Positions 40,749 through 52,505 of a stretch of 64,000 nt of DNA are shown piece by piece. The position numbers and the translations under genes are program-made. The notes beneath the pieces are model-generated. The model had not been told where the DNA came from, did no database searches, and saw nothing but the letters and a program-made list of their open reading frames with translations. The DNA is from Candidatus Hodarchaeota archaeon (lineage in GTDB: Archaea; Asgardarchaeota; Heimdallarchaeia; Hodarchaeales; Hodarchaeaceae), in assembly GCA_029856365.1 (NCBI GenBank), contig JAHQWW010000001.1:1-64000 (forward strand), read 5' to 3'. How positions within the stretch are numbered: the first letter of the stretch is position 1; each line of letters opens with the position of its first letter.

Positions 40749-42128
40749 ATGTTTGGTGATCCTCAAACCTTTTGTAGATCAATTGCAGAGAAAAGTAACC
40801 TACAGGAAGGTACGAAGGGCGTTGAACGAATAATTTTAGAGATGTACAGACGACAAACCCAAAAAATGACCAATAAAGAGCTTTCAAGGCATGTTCGTAT
40901 CCCTATTCCTGTACTTTCTGCCGTTCGAGGTGAGATGTTAAAGGTAGGATTTCTAGAAACAAAGAGTATTTTATCAAGTACTGCTATTAAATGGATTCAA
41001 AAAAGAATGGGACTGTCTTATTCTTATGAATTTTTTCAGGATTTTAACATAGACTCTTCGTTTAAGGTCTCAAAAAAGTACCTTGAATTTTTTAATCCAG
41101 TAATTGAATATTTAAATCGCCGTCCTCCTCCTGAATATAAATACGATCAGTCTCGCAGTATTCCTGAAACTGTGTTGAAAAGAACACTGTTAATGTTAAG
41201 AAATGGAGATGTGGAGGGGAAAAGGATAGCCATCTTAGGAGATGATGACGGTGTTTCTTTAGCGTTAGGATTTCTCGGATGTGCAAAAGAAATTCTTGTC
41301 ATTGATATCGATTCCCGCATTCTTGAGTTTATTGATTCTTTTGCTCATGAGAAAAACTTGGTAAATGTGTTGAACACGCAACTATGGGATATAAGAACTA
41401 CATTTCCAAAAAAATGGCAGCAACATTTTGATACTTTTGAAACGGATCCACCTTATACCGTTTCGGGTTTCAAACTATTCATTGATCAGGCCCTTACTCT
41501 CCTAGATCCAATGGAAGGTGGGAGAGGTTATGTTTCATTTGGAACTAAGTCACCTCACGATACCTGGGCGTGCCAACAACATCTTCTAGAAGCAGGTTTT
41601 TCGATTGAAGAGTTCTTTCAGGATTTTAATCGTTACCACGGAGCAACAATTTTAGGTAATACTTCTAATCTGTATGTCATAAGTTCTGTTCCTCAAAAAT
41701 TGCGCCTCTTAGAAACAAAACATTCTGAAAAGACAATCTATACTTTTGATGAAAAGAAAGTAAAAGACCTCCCAACTGTGGGTTATCAAATTATTGCTGA
41801 ATTTTATGGAGTTAAACCCACTTATCTGAATGAAGCTAAGAAATTAACCAATATCCTTCAAAGTGGTATCAAAAAAAGTCAGCTCCATATGGAGGAAATG
41901 TTTGTTAAAGAGTATTCTCCATATGGTTTGTCAATTATAGCCATTTTAGTGGAAAGTCATTGTCATTTGCATACATGGCCAGAATGGGATTATCTTTCCC
42001 TCGACATATTTGTATGTGAAGCGAGAGAAAAAGCGGAAAAATTATTTCAATATCTATTAAAAATAATAGATCCATTGGATTATCATAAATTCCAATTTTT
42101 TCGAGGTCGGCCTCCATCAATAGATTAG
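40749..42128 (+). CDS. Fusion of BpsA-like branched-chain polyamine synthase and pyruvoyl SAM decarboxylase (SpeD-like)
   Basis: LGDDDGVSLA, DIDSRI, TDPPYT in the N-terminal part; C-terminal ~115 aa with PYGLS..ILVESHCHLHTWPE..LSLDIFVC. Confidence 0.85.
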   Translation: MFGDPQTFCRSIAEKSNLQEGTKGVERIILEMYRRQTQKMTNKELSRHVRIPIPVLSAVRGEMLKVGFLETKSILSSTAIKWIQKRMGLSYSYEFFQDFNIDSSFKVSKKYLEFFNPVIEYLNRRPPPEYKYDQSRSIPETVLKRTLLMLRNGDVEGKRIAILGDDDGVSLALGFLGCAKEILVIDIDSRILEFIDSFAHEKNLVNVLNTQLWDIRTTFPKKWQQHFDTFETDPPYTVSGFKLFIDQALTLLDPMEGGRGYVSFGTKSPHDTWACQQHLLEAGFSIEEFFQDFNRYHGATILGNTSNLYVISSVPQKLRLLETKHSEKTIYTFDEKKVKDLPTVGYQIIAEFYGVKPTYLNEAKKLTNILQSGIKKSQLHMEEMFVKEYSPYGLSIIAILVESHCHLHTWPEWDYLSLDIFVCEAREKAEKLFQYLLKIIDPLDYHKFQFFRGRPPSID

Positions 42129-44720: not shown

Positions 44721-44978
44721 AATGGCTCACATCATTCAGAAAGAACAATATTTTCTATATTACTGATTATCCTTTTATTTTATCTCGGAATGAGATCAGT
44801 ATCAACTATAATAAAATCATATTATATAGAGAGGGTACAGCTTGCTATGAACTTAATATTAACTTAGAACACATTAGAATTTTATGCTCATAAATTGTCC
44901 CCAAAAATTTATCTTATTTTTAAAGATCAAAAATAAATACATTATTTGATCGTGTTAATAAAAGGGTTGAATAAGCAA

Positions 44979-45851
44979 ATGCTAGACAAACAGACCGAAA
45001 AACTCGTGTTGCATGCTCAAAAAAATGAAATCACAGAATACCACATTTATAAAAAATTAGCGAAATCAACTAAAGACCCTCATAACCAAAAAATCCTCAA
45101 CCAAATTGCTGAAGATGAGTTAAAGCATTATTCTTTTTGGAATCAATATACTCAACGAGAAGTAAGTCCAAGTAGAAAAAAGTGGTTCTATTACTTTATT
45201 GCAAGAATATTTGGTTTAACATTTGGTATTCGTCTAATGGAGCTCGGTGAAGGACAGGCTCAAGTCTTTTATACCACTATTACTAAGCTTATTCCTGAAG
45301 CACAATCCATCATCGAAGATGAAGAGGCTCATGAAAAAGAACTCATCAGTCTCATCGATGAAGAATTATTAGATTACATAGGATCTGTTGTTCTTGGTTT
45401 AAACGATGCGTTAGTAGAACTCACTGGGGCTCTCGCTGGATTGACATTAGCCTTTCAGAACGCTCAACTAATTGCTCTAGCAGGTTTGATTACAGGAATC
45501 GCTGCCTCCTTGTCCATGGCCGCATCAGAATATCTTGCAACAAAAGAAGAACAAACAACGAAAAATCCTTTAAAAGCGGCAATATACACAGGTATCGCAT
45601 ATGTTGCTACTGTTTTTTTCCTTATTTTACCTTATTTAATCTTTAGTAATCAATCCCCACTTGTATGTCTAGCGATCACCCTTATCAATGCTATCCTTAT
45701 AGTCTTAGTTTTTACATTCTATATTTCCGTGGCCAAGGATCTCTCGTTCAAGAAAAGATTCTCTGAAATTGTCGGAATCAGTTTAGGAGTAGCCAGTTTA
45801 ACTTTCATTATTGGATTAGTTGTACGATCAGTCTTGAACATTGATATATGA
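44979..45851 (+). CDS. VIT1/CCC1 iron transporter with N-terminal ferritin-like domain
   Basis: ExxH motifs (ELKH, EEAH); VLGLNDALVE, SLSMAASEYLA. Confidence 0.88.
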   Translation: MLDKQTEKLVLHAQKNEITEYHIYKKLAKSTKDPHNQKILNQIAEDELKHYSFWNQYTQREVSPSRKKWFYYFIARIFGLTFGIRLMELGEGQAQVFYTTITKLIPEAQSIIEDEEAHEKELISLIDEELLDYIGSVVLGLNDALVELTGALAGLTLAFQNAQLIALAGLITGIAASLSMAASEYLATKEEQTTKNPLKAAIYTGIAYVATVFFLILPYLIFSNQSPLVCLAITLINAILIVLVFTFYISVAKDLSFKKRFSEIVGISLGVASLTFIIGLVVRSVLNIDI

Positions 45852-45960: not shown

Positions 45961-47463
45961 ATGAGGATATTGAAATATTTCTCTTGTTCTGTTATTGGTT
46001 TCATTCTCTTATTAGCGATTACACCGATAGGTGGAGTCAAGGGCTGCACTAATGCAGTCAGTGATTACTACTTCTCTGTCCCAGAAGAAATAGTAGAAGT
46101 AAGTATCAACTTAGATGGATCTGCAGATATTGAATACTGGATTACTTTTGTAGTAATAGATGGAGGTGATCCCATTGATATTGTGGATATTGGTTTTCCC
46201 AACAAGTTTTACAAACCCGGAAGTATAATAGCGGATGTTAATGGGACACCAGTGACAGATATTTCGAAATCTGCCGTAATTGACATTGGTGTTGAAATTC
46301 ATTTACACGAATCCACGATTACAGGCACAGGAGTACTACATGTAAAGGGAAACCAACCGTACATGATATTTGAAGATACTGAAGAGGAAGATATGGCTTC
46401 TGTAGAATTCGGAAATACATGGTGGGATTCCACCTATACAACTGGCACTACAAACTTAACTACTCGAATTATATTTCCTACAACTGTAGATGAAACAACA
46501 TATACCAAGTATCACTATTCCGATAAACCAGATCATGAATATTTTTTACTAAATGGACGTAAAGTATTCGAATGGAACGAACCATCCGCTTCTCCCTCAA
46601 GTCAATATACATATGGAGTTTCCTTTCCTAAAGCAGGAGTGACATGGTACACAAGTTATCCTCTCACCATAGAGGAACTTTTAATTATTGTGGGTATTAG
46701 TAGTGTTATACTAATTGCTATTGTGGTTGCTATTGTAAGTTATATAAGGAAACGACGTCGATTGATGGATTATATTCCTCCTTTTGTCTCAGTTCCCACC
46801 GCTGGTCCTAGAATGGATCTCCGTAGAGAAGAAGTAGCCATTGTTTTAGAAAAACCCGTGAATGTCACAATTTCCATGATTATTCTCACATTAATCCAAA
46901 AGGGCCTATTAAAGCAGTTTTCATCTGAGAGTCCCCTCCTTGAGCCCATCAAAGGTGCTTCGAAAAAACACCTCCGAAAATATGAGCAAATAGTTCTGAA
47001 ATCCATTCATACAGACCTCAGTATCGATGAGGATGATTTAGTGAAAGCAGTATCCAGTTTGGTTAAATCCACCCAACGTAGGATTCGAGGATATTCGTAT
47101 GAAAGAACTGTGGAATATTATGAAAGATTAATTCGAGAATCTGTTGCAACAATTAAATCAGAATCCGATCCACGGAATGTTTCTACAGAAGCTTGGTTTT
47201 GGGCAATTCTGGATGAGGAATTCTTACCAGACTTAGAAGTGCAAATAACTGAGCGTGAAGAGTATTACAATTATTACCCATGGTATTATCATTATGGTTA
47301 TCATCGATGGCATTGGATCCCTCGTGGCCGATCCTTCACCCGCCGTGTGACAAGGATCAGTCATCCCATCCCCCGAGGAAGTAGTGGGGGTTCAAGAGGA
47401 GGTGGGGGTTGTGCTTGTGCTTGTGCTGGTTGTGCCTGCGCCTGTGCTGGAGGTGGTCGTTGA
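45961..47463 (+). CDS. Single-pass membrane protein (DUF2207-like ectodomain) with aromatic-rich segment and C-terminal Cys-Ala repeat tail
   Basis: Signal peptide, beta-rich ectodomain, TM followed by RKRRR, YYNYYPWYYHYGYHRWHW, Gly/Ser linker, CACACAGCACACAGGGR. Confidence 0.8.
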   Translation: MRILKYFSCSVIGFILLLAITPIGGVKGCTNAVSDYYFSVPEEIVEVSINLDGSADIEYWITFVVIDGGDPIDIVDIGFPNKFYKPGSIIADVNGTPVTDISKSAVIDIGVEIHLHESTITGTGVLHVKGNQPYMIFEDTEEEDMASVEFGNTWWDSTYTTGTTNLTTRIIFPTTVDETTYTKYHYSDKPDHEYFLLNGRKVFEWNEPSASPSSQYTYGVSFPKAGVTWYTSYPLTIEELLIIVGISSVILIAIVVAIVSYIRKRRRLMDYIPPFVSVPTAGPRMDLRREEVAIVLEKPVNVTISMIILTLIQKGLLKQFSSESPLLEPIKGASKKHLRKYEQIVLKSIHTDLSIDEDDLVKAVSSLVKSTQRRIRGYSYERTVEYYERLIRESVATIKSESDPRNVSTEAWFWAILDEEFLPDLEVQITEREEYYNYYPWYYHYGYHRWHWIPRGRSFTRRVTRISHPIPRGSSGGSRGGGGCACACAGCACACAGGGR

Positions 47464-48789
47464 ATGAAACGGACAGGAAGTGCGGAATTAGTACATTTAA
47501 GAGAAGGGGAGGATGGAGATATTCGATTACATCTCCGTCGTCAAGGTGATAGTGGCCTTTTAATTATCAACGCGTCGAGAATATTGAACCTCAATTCTAC
47601 TGCAACATTCTTTGTGGAAAGGATTCTGAAGGGTAAGACAGATTCAGAGATTATTAAGGAGCTCAAAGGTCTTTATCGTGTCAGTGAACAGCAAGCGAAT
47701 CTAGATCTTCAATCATTGAAAGATATGATTCATACATTATCAACAACAGATGATATTTGTCCCATTCATTCCCTTCAAATGGAAGAATCGGCTTTAACAG
47801 AACTATCACTAACTGCTCCTTTACGAATGGACTTAGCAATCACTTATAGATGTAATAACAAATGTGCACATTGCTATAATCAACCGGAGTCACAAAATGC
47901 AGCTGAATTAGATACAAACACTTGGAAGTCCATTCTAGGACGACTTTGGGAGGTTTCTATTCCTCATGTGACTTTTACAGGAGGTGAACCCACGTTACGC
48001 CACGATCTGCCTGATTTAATTGACCATGCGGAGAATATTGGAATAGTTACTGGACTTATTACAAATGGTCGAAATCTAAAGGATGTAAACTATGTAGATG
48101 GGTTGGTAAATAACGGTCTAGATCATATTCAGATTACATTTGAAAGCGTAGATGAAAGGATTCACAACCAAATGGTGGGAAATGAACATGCGTGGGTAGA
48201 GACAGTTGAAGGTATAAAAAATGCTATAGATACCCCTATCTATACTCTGACGAACACTACATTGACTCGTTTGAATACTCCCAAGATAGAAGAGACCGTT
48301 GAATTCCTTAACAGTCTTGATGTGGAACAATTCGCCTGTAACTCAATTATATATGCCGGAAAAGGGAAAAATGTTTCCAAGATAGCCTTAACAGAGAGTG
48401 AGCTAATTCCGATTCTCGAATCGATTCAGGATATAGCAGATGAATATGGTATGCAGTTTATTTGGTACACACCGACTCGTTACTGTGAACTTGATCCGAA
48501 TAACCTAGGATTAGGAGTGAAGAGATGTTCTGCTTCACATTTAGCAATGGCTATTGAACCCAATGGAACCGTAATTCCATGTCAGAGTTACTATAAAGGA
48601 TTGGGTCATATTCTGAATGATAGTTGGGAGAGTATCTGGAATAATCCTCTATCACAAAAGCTGCGAACTCATGCAAACGTCCCTGATGAGTGTCAAAATT
48701 GTAATCAACTTGATCTCTGTGGTGGCGGTTGTCCTCTGAGTTTCTATCGCGAGGAATATATATGTCCCGAAAGTCAAGCCAACGATTGA
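47464..48789 (+). CDS. PqqD/RRE-fused radical SAM-SPASM protein
   Basis: LNSTATFF...SEIIKELKGLYRVSEQQANLDL (PqqD-like), CNNKCAHC, FTGGEP, SPASM C...IEPNGTVIPC...CQNC...CGGGC. Confidence 0.9.
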   Translation: MKRTGSAELVHLREGEDGDIRLHLRRQGDSGLLIINASRILNLNSTATFFVERILKGKTDSEIIKELKGLYRVSEQQANLDLQSLKDMIHTLSTTDDICPIHSLQMEESALTELSLTAPLRMDLAITYRCNNKCAHCYNQPESQNAAELDTNTWKSILGRLWEVSIPHVTFTGGEPTLRHDLPDLIDHAENIGIVTGLITNGRNLKDVNYVDGLVNNGLDHIQITFESVDERIHNQMVGNEHAWVETVEGIKNAIDTPIYTLTNTTLTRLNTPKIEETVEFLNSLDVEQFACNSIIYAGKGKNVSKIALTESELIPILESIQDIADEYGMQFIWYTPTRYCELDPNNLGLGVKRCSASHLAMAIEPNGTVIPCQSYYKGLGHILNDSWESIWNNPLSQKLRTHANVPDECQNCNQLDLCGGGCPLSFYREEYICPESQAND

Positions 48790-49553
48790 GCTCAAGGGAC
48801 TTATTAACAGTAGAAGATGATGCTAGGTATTTTACTGAGCTCTACCAAGGACAATTAGACTGGACTACTTCAACCAGAAAGCGATTATACAGACAAATGG
48901 ATCTATTCCATGCACAACAGATTTTGGAAGTGGGTTCTGGCACTGGAGTGATTCTACGTGAGATTAAATCCATAAATCCAAGAGCCAGACTCATTGGCCT
49001 TGACCAAAACTTGCTAGCACTAAAATATTCACAAAAAATAGTGGCAAATGATACATTGATTCAAGGAGACGGTGCTGTATTACCCTTCTCTTCCCAAAGC
49101 TTTGATATTGTGTTGTGTCACTATTTTCTTATGTGGGTTGAAAATCCCATTACCACTCTTCGGGAAATGATGAGAGTAACGCGAAATGGAGGATGGATTG
49201 CATGCTTAGCTGAACCAGATTATGGAGGGCGAATGGATTATCCTGATAATGAAATCTGGATGGAACTGCTTCTAAATTCCATCTCTGGAGCAGATCCTTT
49301 CATAGGAAGAAAATTAAGGACATATTTCTATCAAATAGGACTTAAGGCACATGTGGGGCTGCAATCAATTGTTTTGCCTCCTGAAGCTGTAAATAACCTT
49401 TATGAGGCTGAATTAGCAAAATTGAAGCGATTTTGTTCCCCTGAAAATCATCTAAAATTAGATAGATTAACTCAATTGTTCAGATCTCATAAACCTGGAG
49501 AATTATTTAGCTTTATGCCAGTACTTTTTGCTATAGCTCGAAAAACTGCATAA
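48762..49553 (+). CDS. Class I SAM-dependent methyltransferase
   Basis: ILEVGSGTG, LIGLD, LPFSSQSFDIV, EMMRVTRNGG; ATG at 48762 overlaps the rSAM 3' end. Confidence 0.88.
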   Translation: MSRKSSQRLSSRDLLTVEDDARYFTELYQGQLDWTTSTRKRLYRQMDLFHAQQILEVGSGTGVILREIKSINPRARLIGLDQNLLALKYSQKIVANDTLIQGDGAVLPFSSQSFDIVLCHYFLMWVENPITTLREMMRVTRNGGWIACLAEPDYGGRMDYPDNEIWMELLLNSISGADPFIGRKLRTYFYQIGLKAHVGLQSIVLPPEAVNNLYEAELAKLKRFCSPENHLKLDRLTQLFRSHKPGELFSFMPVLFAIARKTA

Positions 49554-49560
49554 ATACTTT

Positions 49561-49803
49561 CTATTCCTTCTCTTCAAGGCCCAGTAGTCTTAAATCTAAC
49601 AATTGATTAACAACACATCTTCGAACGAATTCAGAATAATTATCAGCTATTCCTAATTCAATAGCTTTTTTAATGGAATTATAAAGTGGGTCTGAAACCC
49701 GTAACAAAATTGTCTTAGCTTTCTCTTTCCTTTTAATGTTCGTTTCCCTCTTTTGAGTAGATTTCTCTAAGTTTTGAGATCTTGGCATAATTATTCCCAT
49801 CAT
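49561..49803 (-). CDS. Ribbon-helix-helix DNA-binding protein
   Basis: TILLRVSDPLYNSIKKAIELGIADNYSEFVRRCV (CopG-like). Confidence 0.7.
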   Translation of the reverse strand: MMGIIMPRSQNLEKSTQKRETNIKRKEKAKTILLRVSDPLYNSIKKAIELGIADNYSEFVRRCVVNQLLDLRLLGLEEKE

Positions 49804-52136: not shown

Positions 52137-52505
52137 ATGAGCTACCAAGATACAATGAACTCTCTGATTCAAAATGGTTATATTTCTATTGTCACTATTC
52201 TTGACGCTAATGGAGGAACATACTGGACTAACCAACCTGAATGGCAAGTGGATGGTACAGCCGTGTTAACAGCTTGGAGGAATAAGGAACCAGGAGTTAC
52301 CATCGGAGGAACCCGTTTCTCTGCAATAATGAATGAATGGGAAACTGGTTTTTTCGTGGCTCGAAATGTTGGCGGAGCAGGAATAGTCGTGATAGCCCGT
52401 GCCCCGAATGGATATTATTTTTTGACATGGACACCAGGGGATGTACAGATTCCTCCTACAAACATCCACGCTGAAGTGTCTCGGATGGCAGCCTTGTTCA
52501 AATAA
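52137..52505 (+). CDS. Profilin (Asgard-type)
   Basis: 122 aa; MSYQ..., ILDANG..YW, GVTIGGTRF, GGAGIVVIA and C-terminal helix match the profilin pattern. Confidence 0.75.
   Translation: MSYQDTMNSLIQNGYISIVTILDANGGTYWTNQPEWQVDGTAVLTAWRNKEPGVTIGGTRFSAIMNEWETGFFVARNVGGAGIVVIARAPNGYYFLTWTPGDVQIPPTNIHAEVSRMAALFK

What the first reader, a model, noticed from the sequence alone, without database searches (positions are those of the whole stretch)
45961..49553. Candidate RiPP-like modification system acting on the Cys-rich tail of a membrane protein (substrate + RRE-rSAM-SPASM + methyltransferase)
Seen: three genes with no spacing (TGA directly followed by ATG, then a 28-nt overlap). Gene 1 is a 500-aa signal-peptide/ectodomain/TM protein whose predicted cytoplasmic end (RKRRR after the TM) carries a Gly/Ser linker and six Cys in CACACAGCACACAGGGR. 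Gene 2 has an N-terminal PqqD/RRE-like domain, CxxxCxxC and a SPASM domain. Gene 3 is a class I methyltransferase. Established: RRE-rSAM-SPASM enzymes (SCIFF/ranthipeptide, sactipeptide and PqqE types) modify short, often Cys-rich precursor peptides encoded beside them. Inference: I found no short precursor ORF here, so the substrate may be the tail of the large membrane protein. That would mean thioether cross-linking and possibly methylation of a receptor-like protein, or release of a modified peptide by proteolysis.
Basis: partly seen in the sequence, partly recalled or inferred. Interest (0 to 1): 0.88.

Follow-up and report, generated by a model that had tools for sequence, protein, structure and literature searches.

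The report
Radical-SAM system for membrane-protein tail
An Asgard archaeon carries a three-gene unit, shared with many anaerobic bacteria, in which a 500-residue membrane protein ending in an unchanging Cys-Ala repeat is inherited together with its own peptide-modifying radical-SAM enzyme and methyltransferase, which points to an untested enzyme-made modification on a whole membrane protein instead of a short secreted peptide.

Summary
Observation confirmed. The last 17 residues are identical in 116 of 120 homologues at ~35% body identity, with only synonymous DNA variation. The RRE-rSAM-SPASM clade and the methyltransferase track it: in 251 Chloroflexota genomes the same 21 hold all three; in this genus 11 of 21 hold all and 10 none. 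A sister subtype with a (Cys-His-Ser-Ala)n tail has its own rSAM clade and no methyltransferase. Canonical DUF2207 proteins have Cys-free Gly tails and do not track the enzyme. No short precursor or conserved protease was found. Co-folding gives weak support (0.56 vs 0.00). Best reading (about 0.65): the enzyme cross-links the tail in place, probably Cys-to-Ala/Gly thioethers; the chemistry is untested. Nine Asgard MAGs hold the enzyme without a detectable gene 1. Closest precedent: CrpC/CrpA (2026), a different enzyme family with a soluble substrate. The scan has noted this system before on several other genomes. No paper describing it was found.

The parts
45961..47463 (+). Gene 1: 500-aa single-pass membrane protein, divergent DUF2207 superfamily; proposed substrate
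45961..46044 (+). N-terminal hydrophobic signal peptide (about residues 1-28)
   Evidence: hydropathy; AF2 helix 2-20
46057..46644 (+). Extracellular beta-sandwich (residues 33-228), ribophorin I/Ost1 and aminopeptidase-N N-domain-like fold
   Evidence: 6c26_1 Z 14.6, rmsd 3.0, 178 aligned; 6s7o_E Z 13.8
46669..46758 (+). Single TM helix (237-266) running into the RKRRR positive-inside motif (263-267)
46816..47313 (+). Cytoplasmic helical domain (286-451), GOLPH3/Vps74-like and DUF2207_C-like fold
   Evidence: 3kn1 Z 8.1, rmsd 3.5, 157 aligned; 2zih Z 6.5; next hit 3.2. DUF2207_C clusters TM 0.57-0.63
47377..47409 (+). Variable Gly/Ser linker (473-483), disordered in the model
47410..47460 (+). 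Invariant core (CA)3G(CA)3GGGR, residues 484-500
47464..48789 (+). Gene 2: RRE-radical SAM-SPASM enzyme of a dedicated clade outside named NCBIfam equivalogs
47566..47718 (+). PqqD/RRE domain (residues 35-85)
   Evidence: above Pfam cut-off
47851..47874 (+). CxxxCxxC SAM-cluster motif (C130, C134, C137), 65/65 conserved
48484..48765 (+). SPASM domain: seven invariant Cys (341, 355, 373, 410, 413, 419, 423); the eighth (434) is variable
48762..49553 (+). Gene 3: class I SAM methyltransferase of a clade that tracks the Cys-Ala-type cassette

Best explanation
Gene 1 is the substrate of gene 2. After membrane insertion its C-terminal ~235 residues face the cytoplasm (inferred from one signal peptide, one TM helix and RKRRR). 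The rSAM docks through its RRE on the cytoplasmic part and threads the flexible Gly-linked (Cys-Ala)n end into its active site. It abstracts H from small residues (Ala/Gly) and most likely joins Cys sulfurs to them as thioethers (-2 Da each); S-to-C-alpha (sactionine-like) is somewhat more likely than S-to-Ala-C-beta. The methyltransferase then acts on the same tail (terminal carboxylate, Arg or free thiols), and the modified tail stays on the protein. Shown: anatomy, invariance, exclusive co-inheritance, pairing of tail type with enzyme clade, absence of a short precursor. Inferred: topology, binding, all chemistry, retention of the tail, function.
For: Tail identical in 116/120 homologues, selected at protein level. 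All 80 GTDB loci carry the tail; 66 hold a catalytic orthologue, 58 of them directly downstream; 5/5 orphan genomes hold it elsewhere at 45-52% identity. In 251 Chloroflexota genomes the same 21 carry gene 1 and the catalytic rSAM, and all 21 carry the methyltransferase. In 300 Asgard genomes 103 have both, 8 gene 1 only, 15 rSAM only, 174 neither; in this genus 11 have all three genes and 10 none. Trees share 35 of 66 splits against 0.16 for shuffled labels (kin share history). A (Cys-His-Ser-Ala)n-tailed subtype sits beside its own rSAM clade at 30-35% identity, and one Chloroflexota genome (G319) holds both subtypes, each with its own enzyme. Canonical DUF2207 proteins end in Cys-free tails (20/20 read) and do not track the enzyme (4 of 39 genomes, p 0.75). 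RRE above cut-off. The seven-Cys SPASM pattern matches CrpC, for which an open auxiliary Fe site for the substrate Cys is proposed (PMC13692751). Co-folding: weak support, 0.56 vs best control 0.00; runs agree in at least 45% of contacts, partner pLDDT at least 70; the mark was reached by 58/80 solved and 2/110 mismatched pairs, but at 0.60 or under by only 7 of those 80 and by both mismatches. Active-site-proximal residues Y/T/T/T/(T,S)/A are nearer SkfB (Y/T/S/S/T/P, read) than CteB (F/F/T/S/H/Q, PMC10288494).
Against: No biochemical data. In Asgard family f17, 9 of 19 MAGs (72-89% complete) have the rSAM but gene 1 or its tail was not found. In that family gene 1 lies at a separate locus and repeatedly breaks contigs at a skewed linker, so loss and assembly failure cannot be told apart. 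The tail has none of the Asp/Glu/Thr acceptors used by known ranthisynthases. Many orthologues have an eighth Cys (C434 or the conserved C99), so the open Fe site is not certain. Full-length similarity does not predict rSAM chemistry (PMC10288494). Methyltransferase homologues also occur without the cassette (13 f14 genomes, G306). Co-inheritance alone cannot separate substrate from binding partner.
Confidence: 0.65

Rival explanations
1. The tail is not modified. It is a thiolate-rich metal or Fe-S ligand, or a docking tether that holds the rSAM and methyltransferase at the membrane, where they act on another substrate such as a lipid or cofactor.
For: The sister subtype is Cys/His-rich, as metal-binding tails are. 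A 2-TM zinc-ribbon gene precedes gene 1 in 63 of 80 loci. The top PDB profile hits of the methyltransferase include phosphoethanolamine N-methyltransferases. The cytoplasmic domain resembles the phosphoinositide-binding GOLPH3 fold. rSAM without gene 1 in some MAGs.
Against: An RRE on a SPASM enzyme is the established mark of peptide substrates. Invariance of every Ala, Gly and the terminal Arg exceeds what metal ligation needs. Each tail type has its own enzyme clade. No other candidate substrate gene is conserved in the loci.
Confidence: 0.13
2. The rSAM modifies the tail but not by thioether formation: for example epimerisation of alternating residues (YydG/EpeE-like, no mass change), or C-C/C-O cross-links, with the Cys left free for metal binding.
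For: The strictly alternating small residues would suit a D/L-alternating backbone (own knowledge of polytheonamide-type products). The nearest families by sequence are mixed in chemistry: SkfB, PqqE, SuiB, NirJ/AhbD.
Against: YydG is only a marginal hit (E 5e-4). Cys-rich cores beside RRE-SPASM enzymes give thioethers in the characterised cases (SCIFF, CrpA, QhpC). The CxxxC spacing of the sister subtype resembles SCIFF cores (own knowledge).
Confidence: 0.1
3. Gene 1 is an oversized RiPP precursor: the modified tail is cut off and acts as a small peptide, and the membrane protein serves as carrier, sensor or leader.
For: The core is at the C-terminus behind a flexible Gly-rich linker. A methyl ester on the terminus (LahSB-like; best single-sequence PDB hit, E 1e-10) would suit a free peptide.
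Against: No protease or exporter is conserved in 81 loci. The ecto- and cytoplasmic domains are conserved folded domains of a family that also exists without any Cys tail. The LahSB ranking is not upheld by the profile search.
Confidence: 0.09
4. The genes are merely neighbours and the true substrate is a short peptide encoded elsewhere.
For: The genome is 84% complete; f17 MAGs with the rSAM but no gene 1.
Against: Exclusive co-occurrence across two domains of life; no conserved small ORF; no stand-alone tail peptide in the protein database.
Confidence: 0.03

Closest known systems
CrpC/CrpA of Methanococcus voltae (TIGR04463; PMC13692751, 2026)
   Same: Archaeal RRE-rSAM-SPASM with seven SPASM Cys acting on the Cys-rich C-terminal region of an adjacent protein rather than a short peptide; one modified CrpA motif contains CAG.
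   Different: CrpA is a 28.8-kDa protein with an N-terminal leader and ten 17-residue C-x-x-Q/D repeats, with no membrane anchor described. Gene 2 was not among the TIGR04463 matches in this genome. Here the substrate is a 500-aa type I membrane protein with under 2% Cys, which that paper's 5-10% Cys filter would miss, and a dedicated methyltransferase is present.
TIGR04222 membrane proteins with MNIO (DUF692) enzymes (PMC12452194)
   Same: Membrane proteins with Gly/Ser-rich C-termini containing Cys, proposed as substrates of an adjacent RiPP-type enzyme. Six of 36 family members hit TIGR04222 (best E 1e-6).
   Different: Different enzyme class; multi-TM proteins with tails predicted periplasmic; loose association (a third of genomes lack MNIO); variable tails; also untested. 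Gene 1 itself does not hit the model.
QhpD/QhpC (quinohaemoprotein amine dehydrogenase gamma subunit)
   Same: An RRE-rSAM-SPASM installs thioethers in a polypeptide that stays part of a protein complex (as described in PMC13692751).
   Different: QhpC is a small subunit with an N-terminal leader and Asp/Glu acceptors; none of the Qhp genes is present here.
Sactipeptide and ranthipeptide RiPPs (SkfB, AlbA, CteB/SCIFF, PapB)
   Same: Domain order RRE-rSAM-SPASM; Cys-rich core. SkfB is the best PDB sequence match (E 7e-30).
   Different: No short precursor, protease or exporter; all family models are far below cut-off.
DUF2207 family (e.g. S. mutans SMU.243, PMC10457818)
   Same: Signal peptide, same ectodomain and C-terminal domain folds, Gly-rich C-terminus.
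   Different: Canonical members have Cys-free tails and no linked rSAM; gene 1 scores below the Pfam cut-off. The function of DUF2207 is unknown (its mutant has stress and biofilm defects).

Membership tests
RRE-dependent radical SAM/SPASM peptide maturase (gene 2) | CxxxCxxC motif in a Radical_SAM domain | tested here: met
   (65/65)
RRE-dependent radical SAM/SPASM peptide maturase (gene 2) | SPASM domain with 7-8 Cys | tested here: met
   PF13186 and TIGR04085 above cut-off; seven invariant Cys
RRE-dependent radical SAM/SPASM peptide maturase (gene 2) | N-terminal RRE/PqqD domain | tested here: met
   PF05402 25.8 bits vs cut-off 23.4; most orthologues carry it
RRE-dependent radical SAM/SPASM peptide maturase (gene 2) | RRE binds the substrate | tested here: inconclusive
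   co-fold weak support 0.56 vs 0.00, no interface given
Sactipeptide/ranthipeptide RiPP | short precursor with leader and core beside the enzyme | tested here: not met
Sactipeptide/ranthipeptide RiPP | thioether cross-links installed by the rSAM | not testable with these tools
   needs LC-MS/MS; only active-site-proximal residues were compared
Sactipeptide/ranthipeptide RiPP | protease or exporter in the cluster | tested here: not met
   none conserved in 81 loci
CrpC family (TIGR04463) | score above the curated cut-off of 525 bits | tested here: not met
   no match over cut-off in the genome and gene 2 not among the matches; absent from its 25 best NCBIfam hits
TIGR04222/MNIO systems | TIGR04222 domain above cut-off and an MNIO gene nearby | tested here: not met
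   gene 1 has no hit; relatives best E 1e-6; conserved neighbours are rSAM, methyltransferase and zinc ribbon
DUF2207 family (gene 1) | PF09972/PF20990 above cut-off | tested here: not met
   no hit for gene 1; the sister-subtype protein in L110 passes PF09972
DUF2207 family (gene 1) | same architecture and folds | tested here: met
   the gene-1 profile retrieves a canonical DUF2207 protein (L105)
GOLPH3/GPP34 fold (cytoplasmic domain) | structural match over most of the domain | tested here: inconclusive
   Z 8.1 and 6.5, well above the next hit (3.2), but modest for a helical domain; Foldseek found nothing; lipid-binding residues not tested
C-terminal carboxyl methyltransferase (LahSB-like, gene 3) | specific similarity to LahSB | tested here: inconclusive
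   top single-sequence hit but tied with unrelated methyltransferases in the profile search

The most novel reading that the evidence does not exclude
A widespread, ancient post-translational modification system in Asgard archaea and anaerobic bacteria in which a radical-SAM enzyme and a methyltransferase build a cross-linked, methylated cage on the cytoplasmic end of a receptor-like membrane protein (ribophorin-like ectodomain, GOLPH3-like cytoplasmic domain). It would serve as a retained signalling, metal/redox-sensing or trafficking tag, with at least two tail 'codes' each read by its own enzyme clade.
Probability: 0.35. Interest if true: 0.88.

Novelty: new variant of a known kind. Interest (0 to 1): 0.72.

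Why it matters
Enzyme-made thioether links on large proteins are validated in very few cases (QhpC, CrpA), and I found none reported on an integral membrane protein. This system defines an unnamed rSAM clade with a clear, short, synthesisable candidate substrate made only of Cys, Ala, Gly and Arg, so it is directly testable and may show new chemistry. It would also give a first mechanistic handle on the DUF2207 superfamily, whose Gly-rich tails appear to have recruited different RiPP enzymes (rSAM here, MNIO proposed for TIGR04222). Precursor-mining pipelines that look for short ORFs or high overall Cys content miss it.

Tried and rejected
Short precursor: none in the locus or in the genome (Cys-rich ends of short spurious frames were treated as noise), none conserved among 3,469 small ORFs in 81 loci, and 118/120 short tail-bearing proteins match the carrier body, the two checked being a contig-edge piece and a frameshifted long-read gene. 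DNA-level repeat or RNA structure as cause of the tail: rejected, 71 distinct synonymous codings. Upstream VIT1/rubrerythrin-like gene (44946-45851) and downstream small gene (49561-49803): neighbours only in close Hodarchaeales relatives, not counted as parts. The 2-TM zinc-ribbon partner and the pseudo-rSAM were not found in this 84%-complete genome. Foldseek found no match for the cytoplasmic domain. Literature searches for the motif, for DUF2207 with radical SAM, and for Asgard with RiPP/SPASM returned nothing; the library lacks most subscription papers. No RNA holder was listed. The supplement with active-site residue tables was not held. The careful IQ-TREE run did not finish; quick and FastTree trees were used, leaving out frameshifted, partial, paralog-ambiguous and very long rows (L034, L048, L064, L069, L083, L102). 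No donor or transfer direction is claimed.
Full report
Observation. The three ORFs are at the stated coordinates and are translationally coupled: TGA directly followed by ATG at 47463/47464, and a 28-nt overlap at 48762-48789. Gene 2 has PqqD (above cut-off), Radical_SAM and SPASM domains and gene 3 is a class I methyltransferase. Neither reaches any named NCBIfam equivalog. The nearest relatives are Hodarchaeales proteins, so the window is from an Asgard archaeon.

Gene 1. It has no Pfam or NCBIfam hit but at least 4,258 homologues. An AlphaFold model shows a signal helix, a confident beta-sandwich (33-228) that matches ribophorin I/Ost1 and aminopeptidase-N N-domains (Z 14.6, rmsd 3.0, 178 aligned), and one TM helix running into RKRRR. 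A helical domain (286-451) follows, then a disordered end. Folded alone (pTM 0.83), the helical domain matches GOLPH3 (Z 8.1, rmsd 3.5, 157 aligned) and Vps74 (Z 6.5), with the next hit at 3.2. This is a modest score for a helical domain and shows no function. The same model matches DUF2207_C clusters. The family profile retrieves a canonical DUF2207 protein (L105), and family members hit DUF2207_C and TIGR04222 weakly. Gene 1 is therefore a divergent DUF2207-superfamily protein. The Cys tail lies about 217 residues after the TM helix, on the cytoplasmic side if the one-TM topology is right (inference).

The tail. 116 of 120 homologues end in the identical 17 residues, (CA)3G(CA)3GGGR, although most are only 30-38% identical to gene 1; the number of leading Cys-Ala units varies. 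All 80 GTDB loci carry the tail or a close variant. In 71 loci the identical peptide is encoded by 71 different DNA sequences, so selection acts on the protein.

Linkage. Of 80 loci from Asgard archaea, Chloroflexota, Acidobacteriota, Zixibacteria, Deltaproteobacteria and others, 66 hold a catalytic orthologue of gene 2, 58 directly downstream. Most of the remainder are cut by contig ends or hold only the inactive paralogue. Five of the six loci with ample flank and no rSAM were checked, and each genome has the orthologue elsewhere at 45-52% identity. In an even sample of 251 genomes of the phylum of G001 (Chloroflexota by record title), exactly the same 21 have gene 1 and the catalytic rSAM, and all 21 have the methyltransferase clade; two further genomes have a methyltransferase match alone. 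In 300 Asgard genomes, 103 have both gene 1 and the rSAM, 8 gene 1 only, 15 the rSAM only, 174 neither. Within this genus 11 genomes have all three genes and 10 have none. The trees of the two proteins share 35 of 66 splits (shuffled mean 0.16; Spearman 0.82). Kin are not independent, so this shows joint inheritance, not physical contact. Control: canonical DUF2207 proteins in the same 251 genomes end in Cys-free, mostly Gly/Ser tails (20 of 20 readable) and do not track the enzyme (4 of 39, p 0.75).

A second code. It lies beside a distant rSAM at 30-35% identity, and none of 76 f11 genomes has the methyltransferase clade. One Chloroflexota genome, G319, holds both subtypes, each beside its own rSAM (L110, L113). 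Three loci have two tandem carrier genes with the same tail. The pairing of tail sequence with enzyme clade is the strongest genomic argument that the tail is what the enzyme reads.

Other partners. A 120-aa two-TM zinc-ribbon protein precedes gene 1 in 63 of 80 loci. A paralogous pseudo-rSAM that keeps an RRE-like region but lacks CxxxCxxC occurs in about 29 loci. Neither was found in this genome (84% complete). No protease, exporter or short ORF is conserved. Short database proteins with the tail are fragments of the same carrier.

Enzyme. CxxxCxxC and seven SPASM Cys are invariant in 65 orthologues. The eighth SPASM Cys is variable, and a Cys-Pro after the RRE is 59/65 conserved. A seven-Cys SPASM with an open auxiliary Fe site is proposed for CrpC (PMC13692751). 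The best PDB sequence matches are SkfB, PqqE and SuiB. The six active-site-proximal positions defined in PMC10288494, assigned here by motif adjacency, read Y/T/T/T/(T,S)/A. These are closer to SkfB than to CteB, a weak pointer to S-C-alpha chemistry. Co-folding of the rSAM with residues 263-500 gave weak support: 0.56 against a best control of 0.00, runs agreeing in at least 45% of contacts, partner pLDDT at least 70. The mark was reached by 58 of 80 solved and 2 of 110 mismatched pairs, but at 0.60 or under by only 7 of those 80 and by both mismatches; no interface was returned.

Against. In Asgard family f17 all 19 MAGs have the rSAM, but gene 1 was found in only 10. Targeted protein searches of the other nine (72-89% complete) were empty, as were tail-pattern searches of four of them. 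In f17 gene 1 lies apart from the rSAM, and three genomes break contigs inside its skewed linker, so this may be assembly loss, but it is unresolved. There is no expression or biochemical evidence.

Mechanism and rivals. Most likely (0.65): the rSAM covalently modifies the tail in place, probably as Cys-to-Ala/Gly thioethers, the methyltransferase caps or methylates the same region, and the product stays on the membrane protein. Rivals: an unmodified metal-binding or tethering tail with another substrate (0.13); non-thioether radical chemistry such as epimerisation (0.10); release of the tail as a peptide (0.09); coincidence (0.03).

Comparison and verdict. It works like CrpC/CrpA and QhpD/QhpC (an RRE-SPASM enzyme on a protein substrate) and parallels the untested TIGR04222/MNIO proposal (PMC12452194). 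It is a member of none of them: gene 2 is not TIGR04463, there is no MNIO, and the short-precursor criterion of sacti- and ranthipeptides is not met. No paper describing it was found. Earlier notes of this scan describe the same cassette and the Cys-His subtype on other genomes. They gave me the CrpC paper, which I read; the rest was tested here independently. Verdict: real, conserved, uncharacterised; a new variant of a known kind; interest 0.72.

Noticed in passing
L006-L080, e.g. L011:7574-7945: A conserved ~120-aa protein with two TM helices and a C-terminal zinc ribbon ending in a Trp-terminated motif precedes gene 1 in 63 of 80 loci and in several Asgard families, but was not found in this genome.
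   Followed up: partly
L068:14513-15694, L033:3368-4666, L099:1-1231: Catalytically dead rSAM paralogues (RRE kept, CxxxCxxC lost; one type keeps four SPASM Cys) accompany the cassette in about 29 loci; L099 (Asgard f28) has a second paralogue cut by the contig end.
   Followed up: partly
L089-L094, L102, L110, L120-L150: Sister subtype with a (Cys-His-Ser-Ala)n tail and its own rSAM clade; in f11 it is often followed by a metallophosphoesterase, and a D-serine dehydratase/alanine racemase-like gene lies next to the rSAM.
   Followed up: partly
L114-L119: In Asgard family f17 the 3' part of gene 1 has extreme strand skew (C-rich, G-poor) and breaks assemblies at the same place in three genomes.
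   Followed up: partly
L034, L039, L069: Two tandem carrier genes with the same shifted tail, (CA)3G(CA)4GGGR, share one cassette.
   Followed up: no
window 44946-45851: Rubrerythrin/ferritin-like plus VIT1 protein (MbfA-like iron exporter) directly upstream on the same strand, also in L001, L004 and L108; a short hairpin and T-run follow its stop and a TATA-like box precedes gene 1.
   Followed up: partly
window 52137-52505: 122-aa ORF that looks like an Asgard profilin (from memory, not tested).
   Followed up: no
window 40749-42128: 459-aa protein that appears to fuse a branched-chain polyamine synthase-like domain to a SAM decarboxylase-like domain (from sequence motifs, not tested).
   Followed up: no
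G000:C160:134085-135548, C173:6449-7636, C204:27291-27524: Three further SPASM-type rSAM genes in this genome, unrelated to the cassette clade (about 22% identity for the two that align).
   Followed up: no
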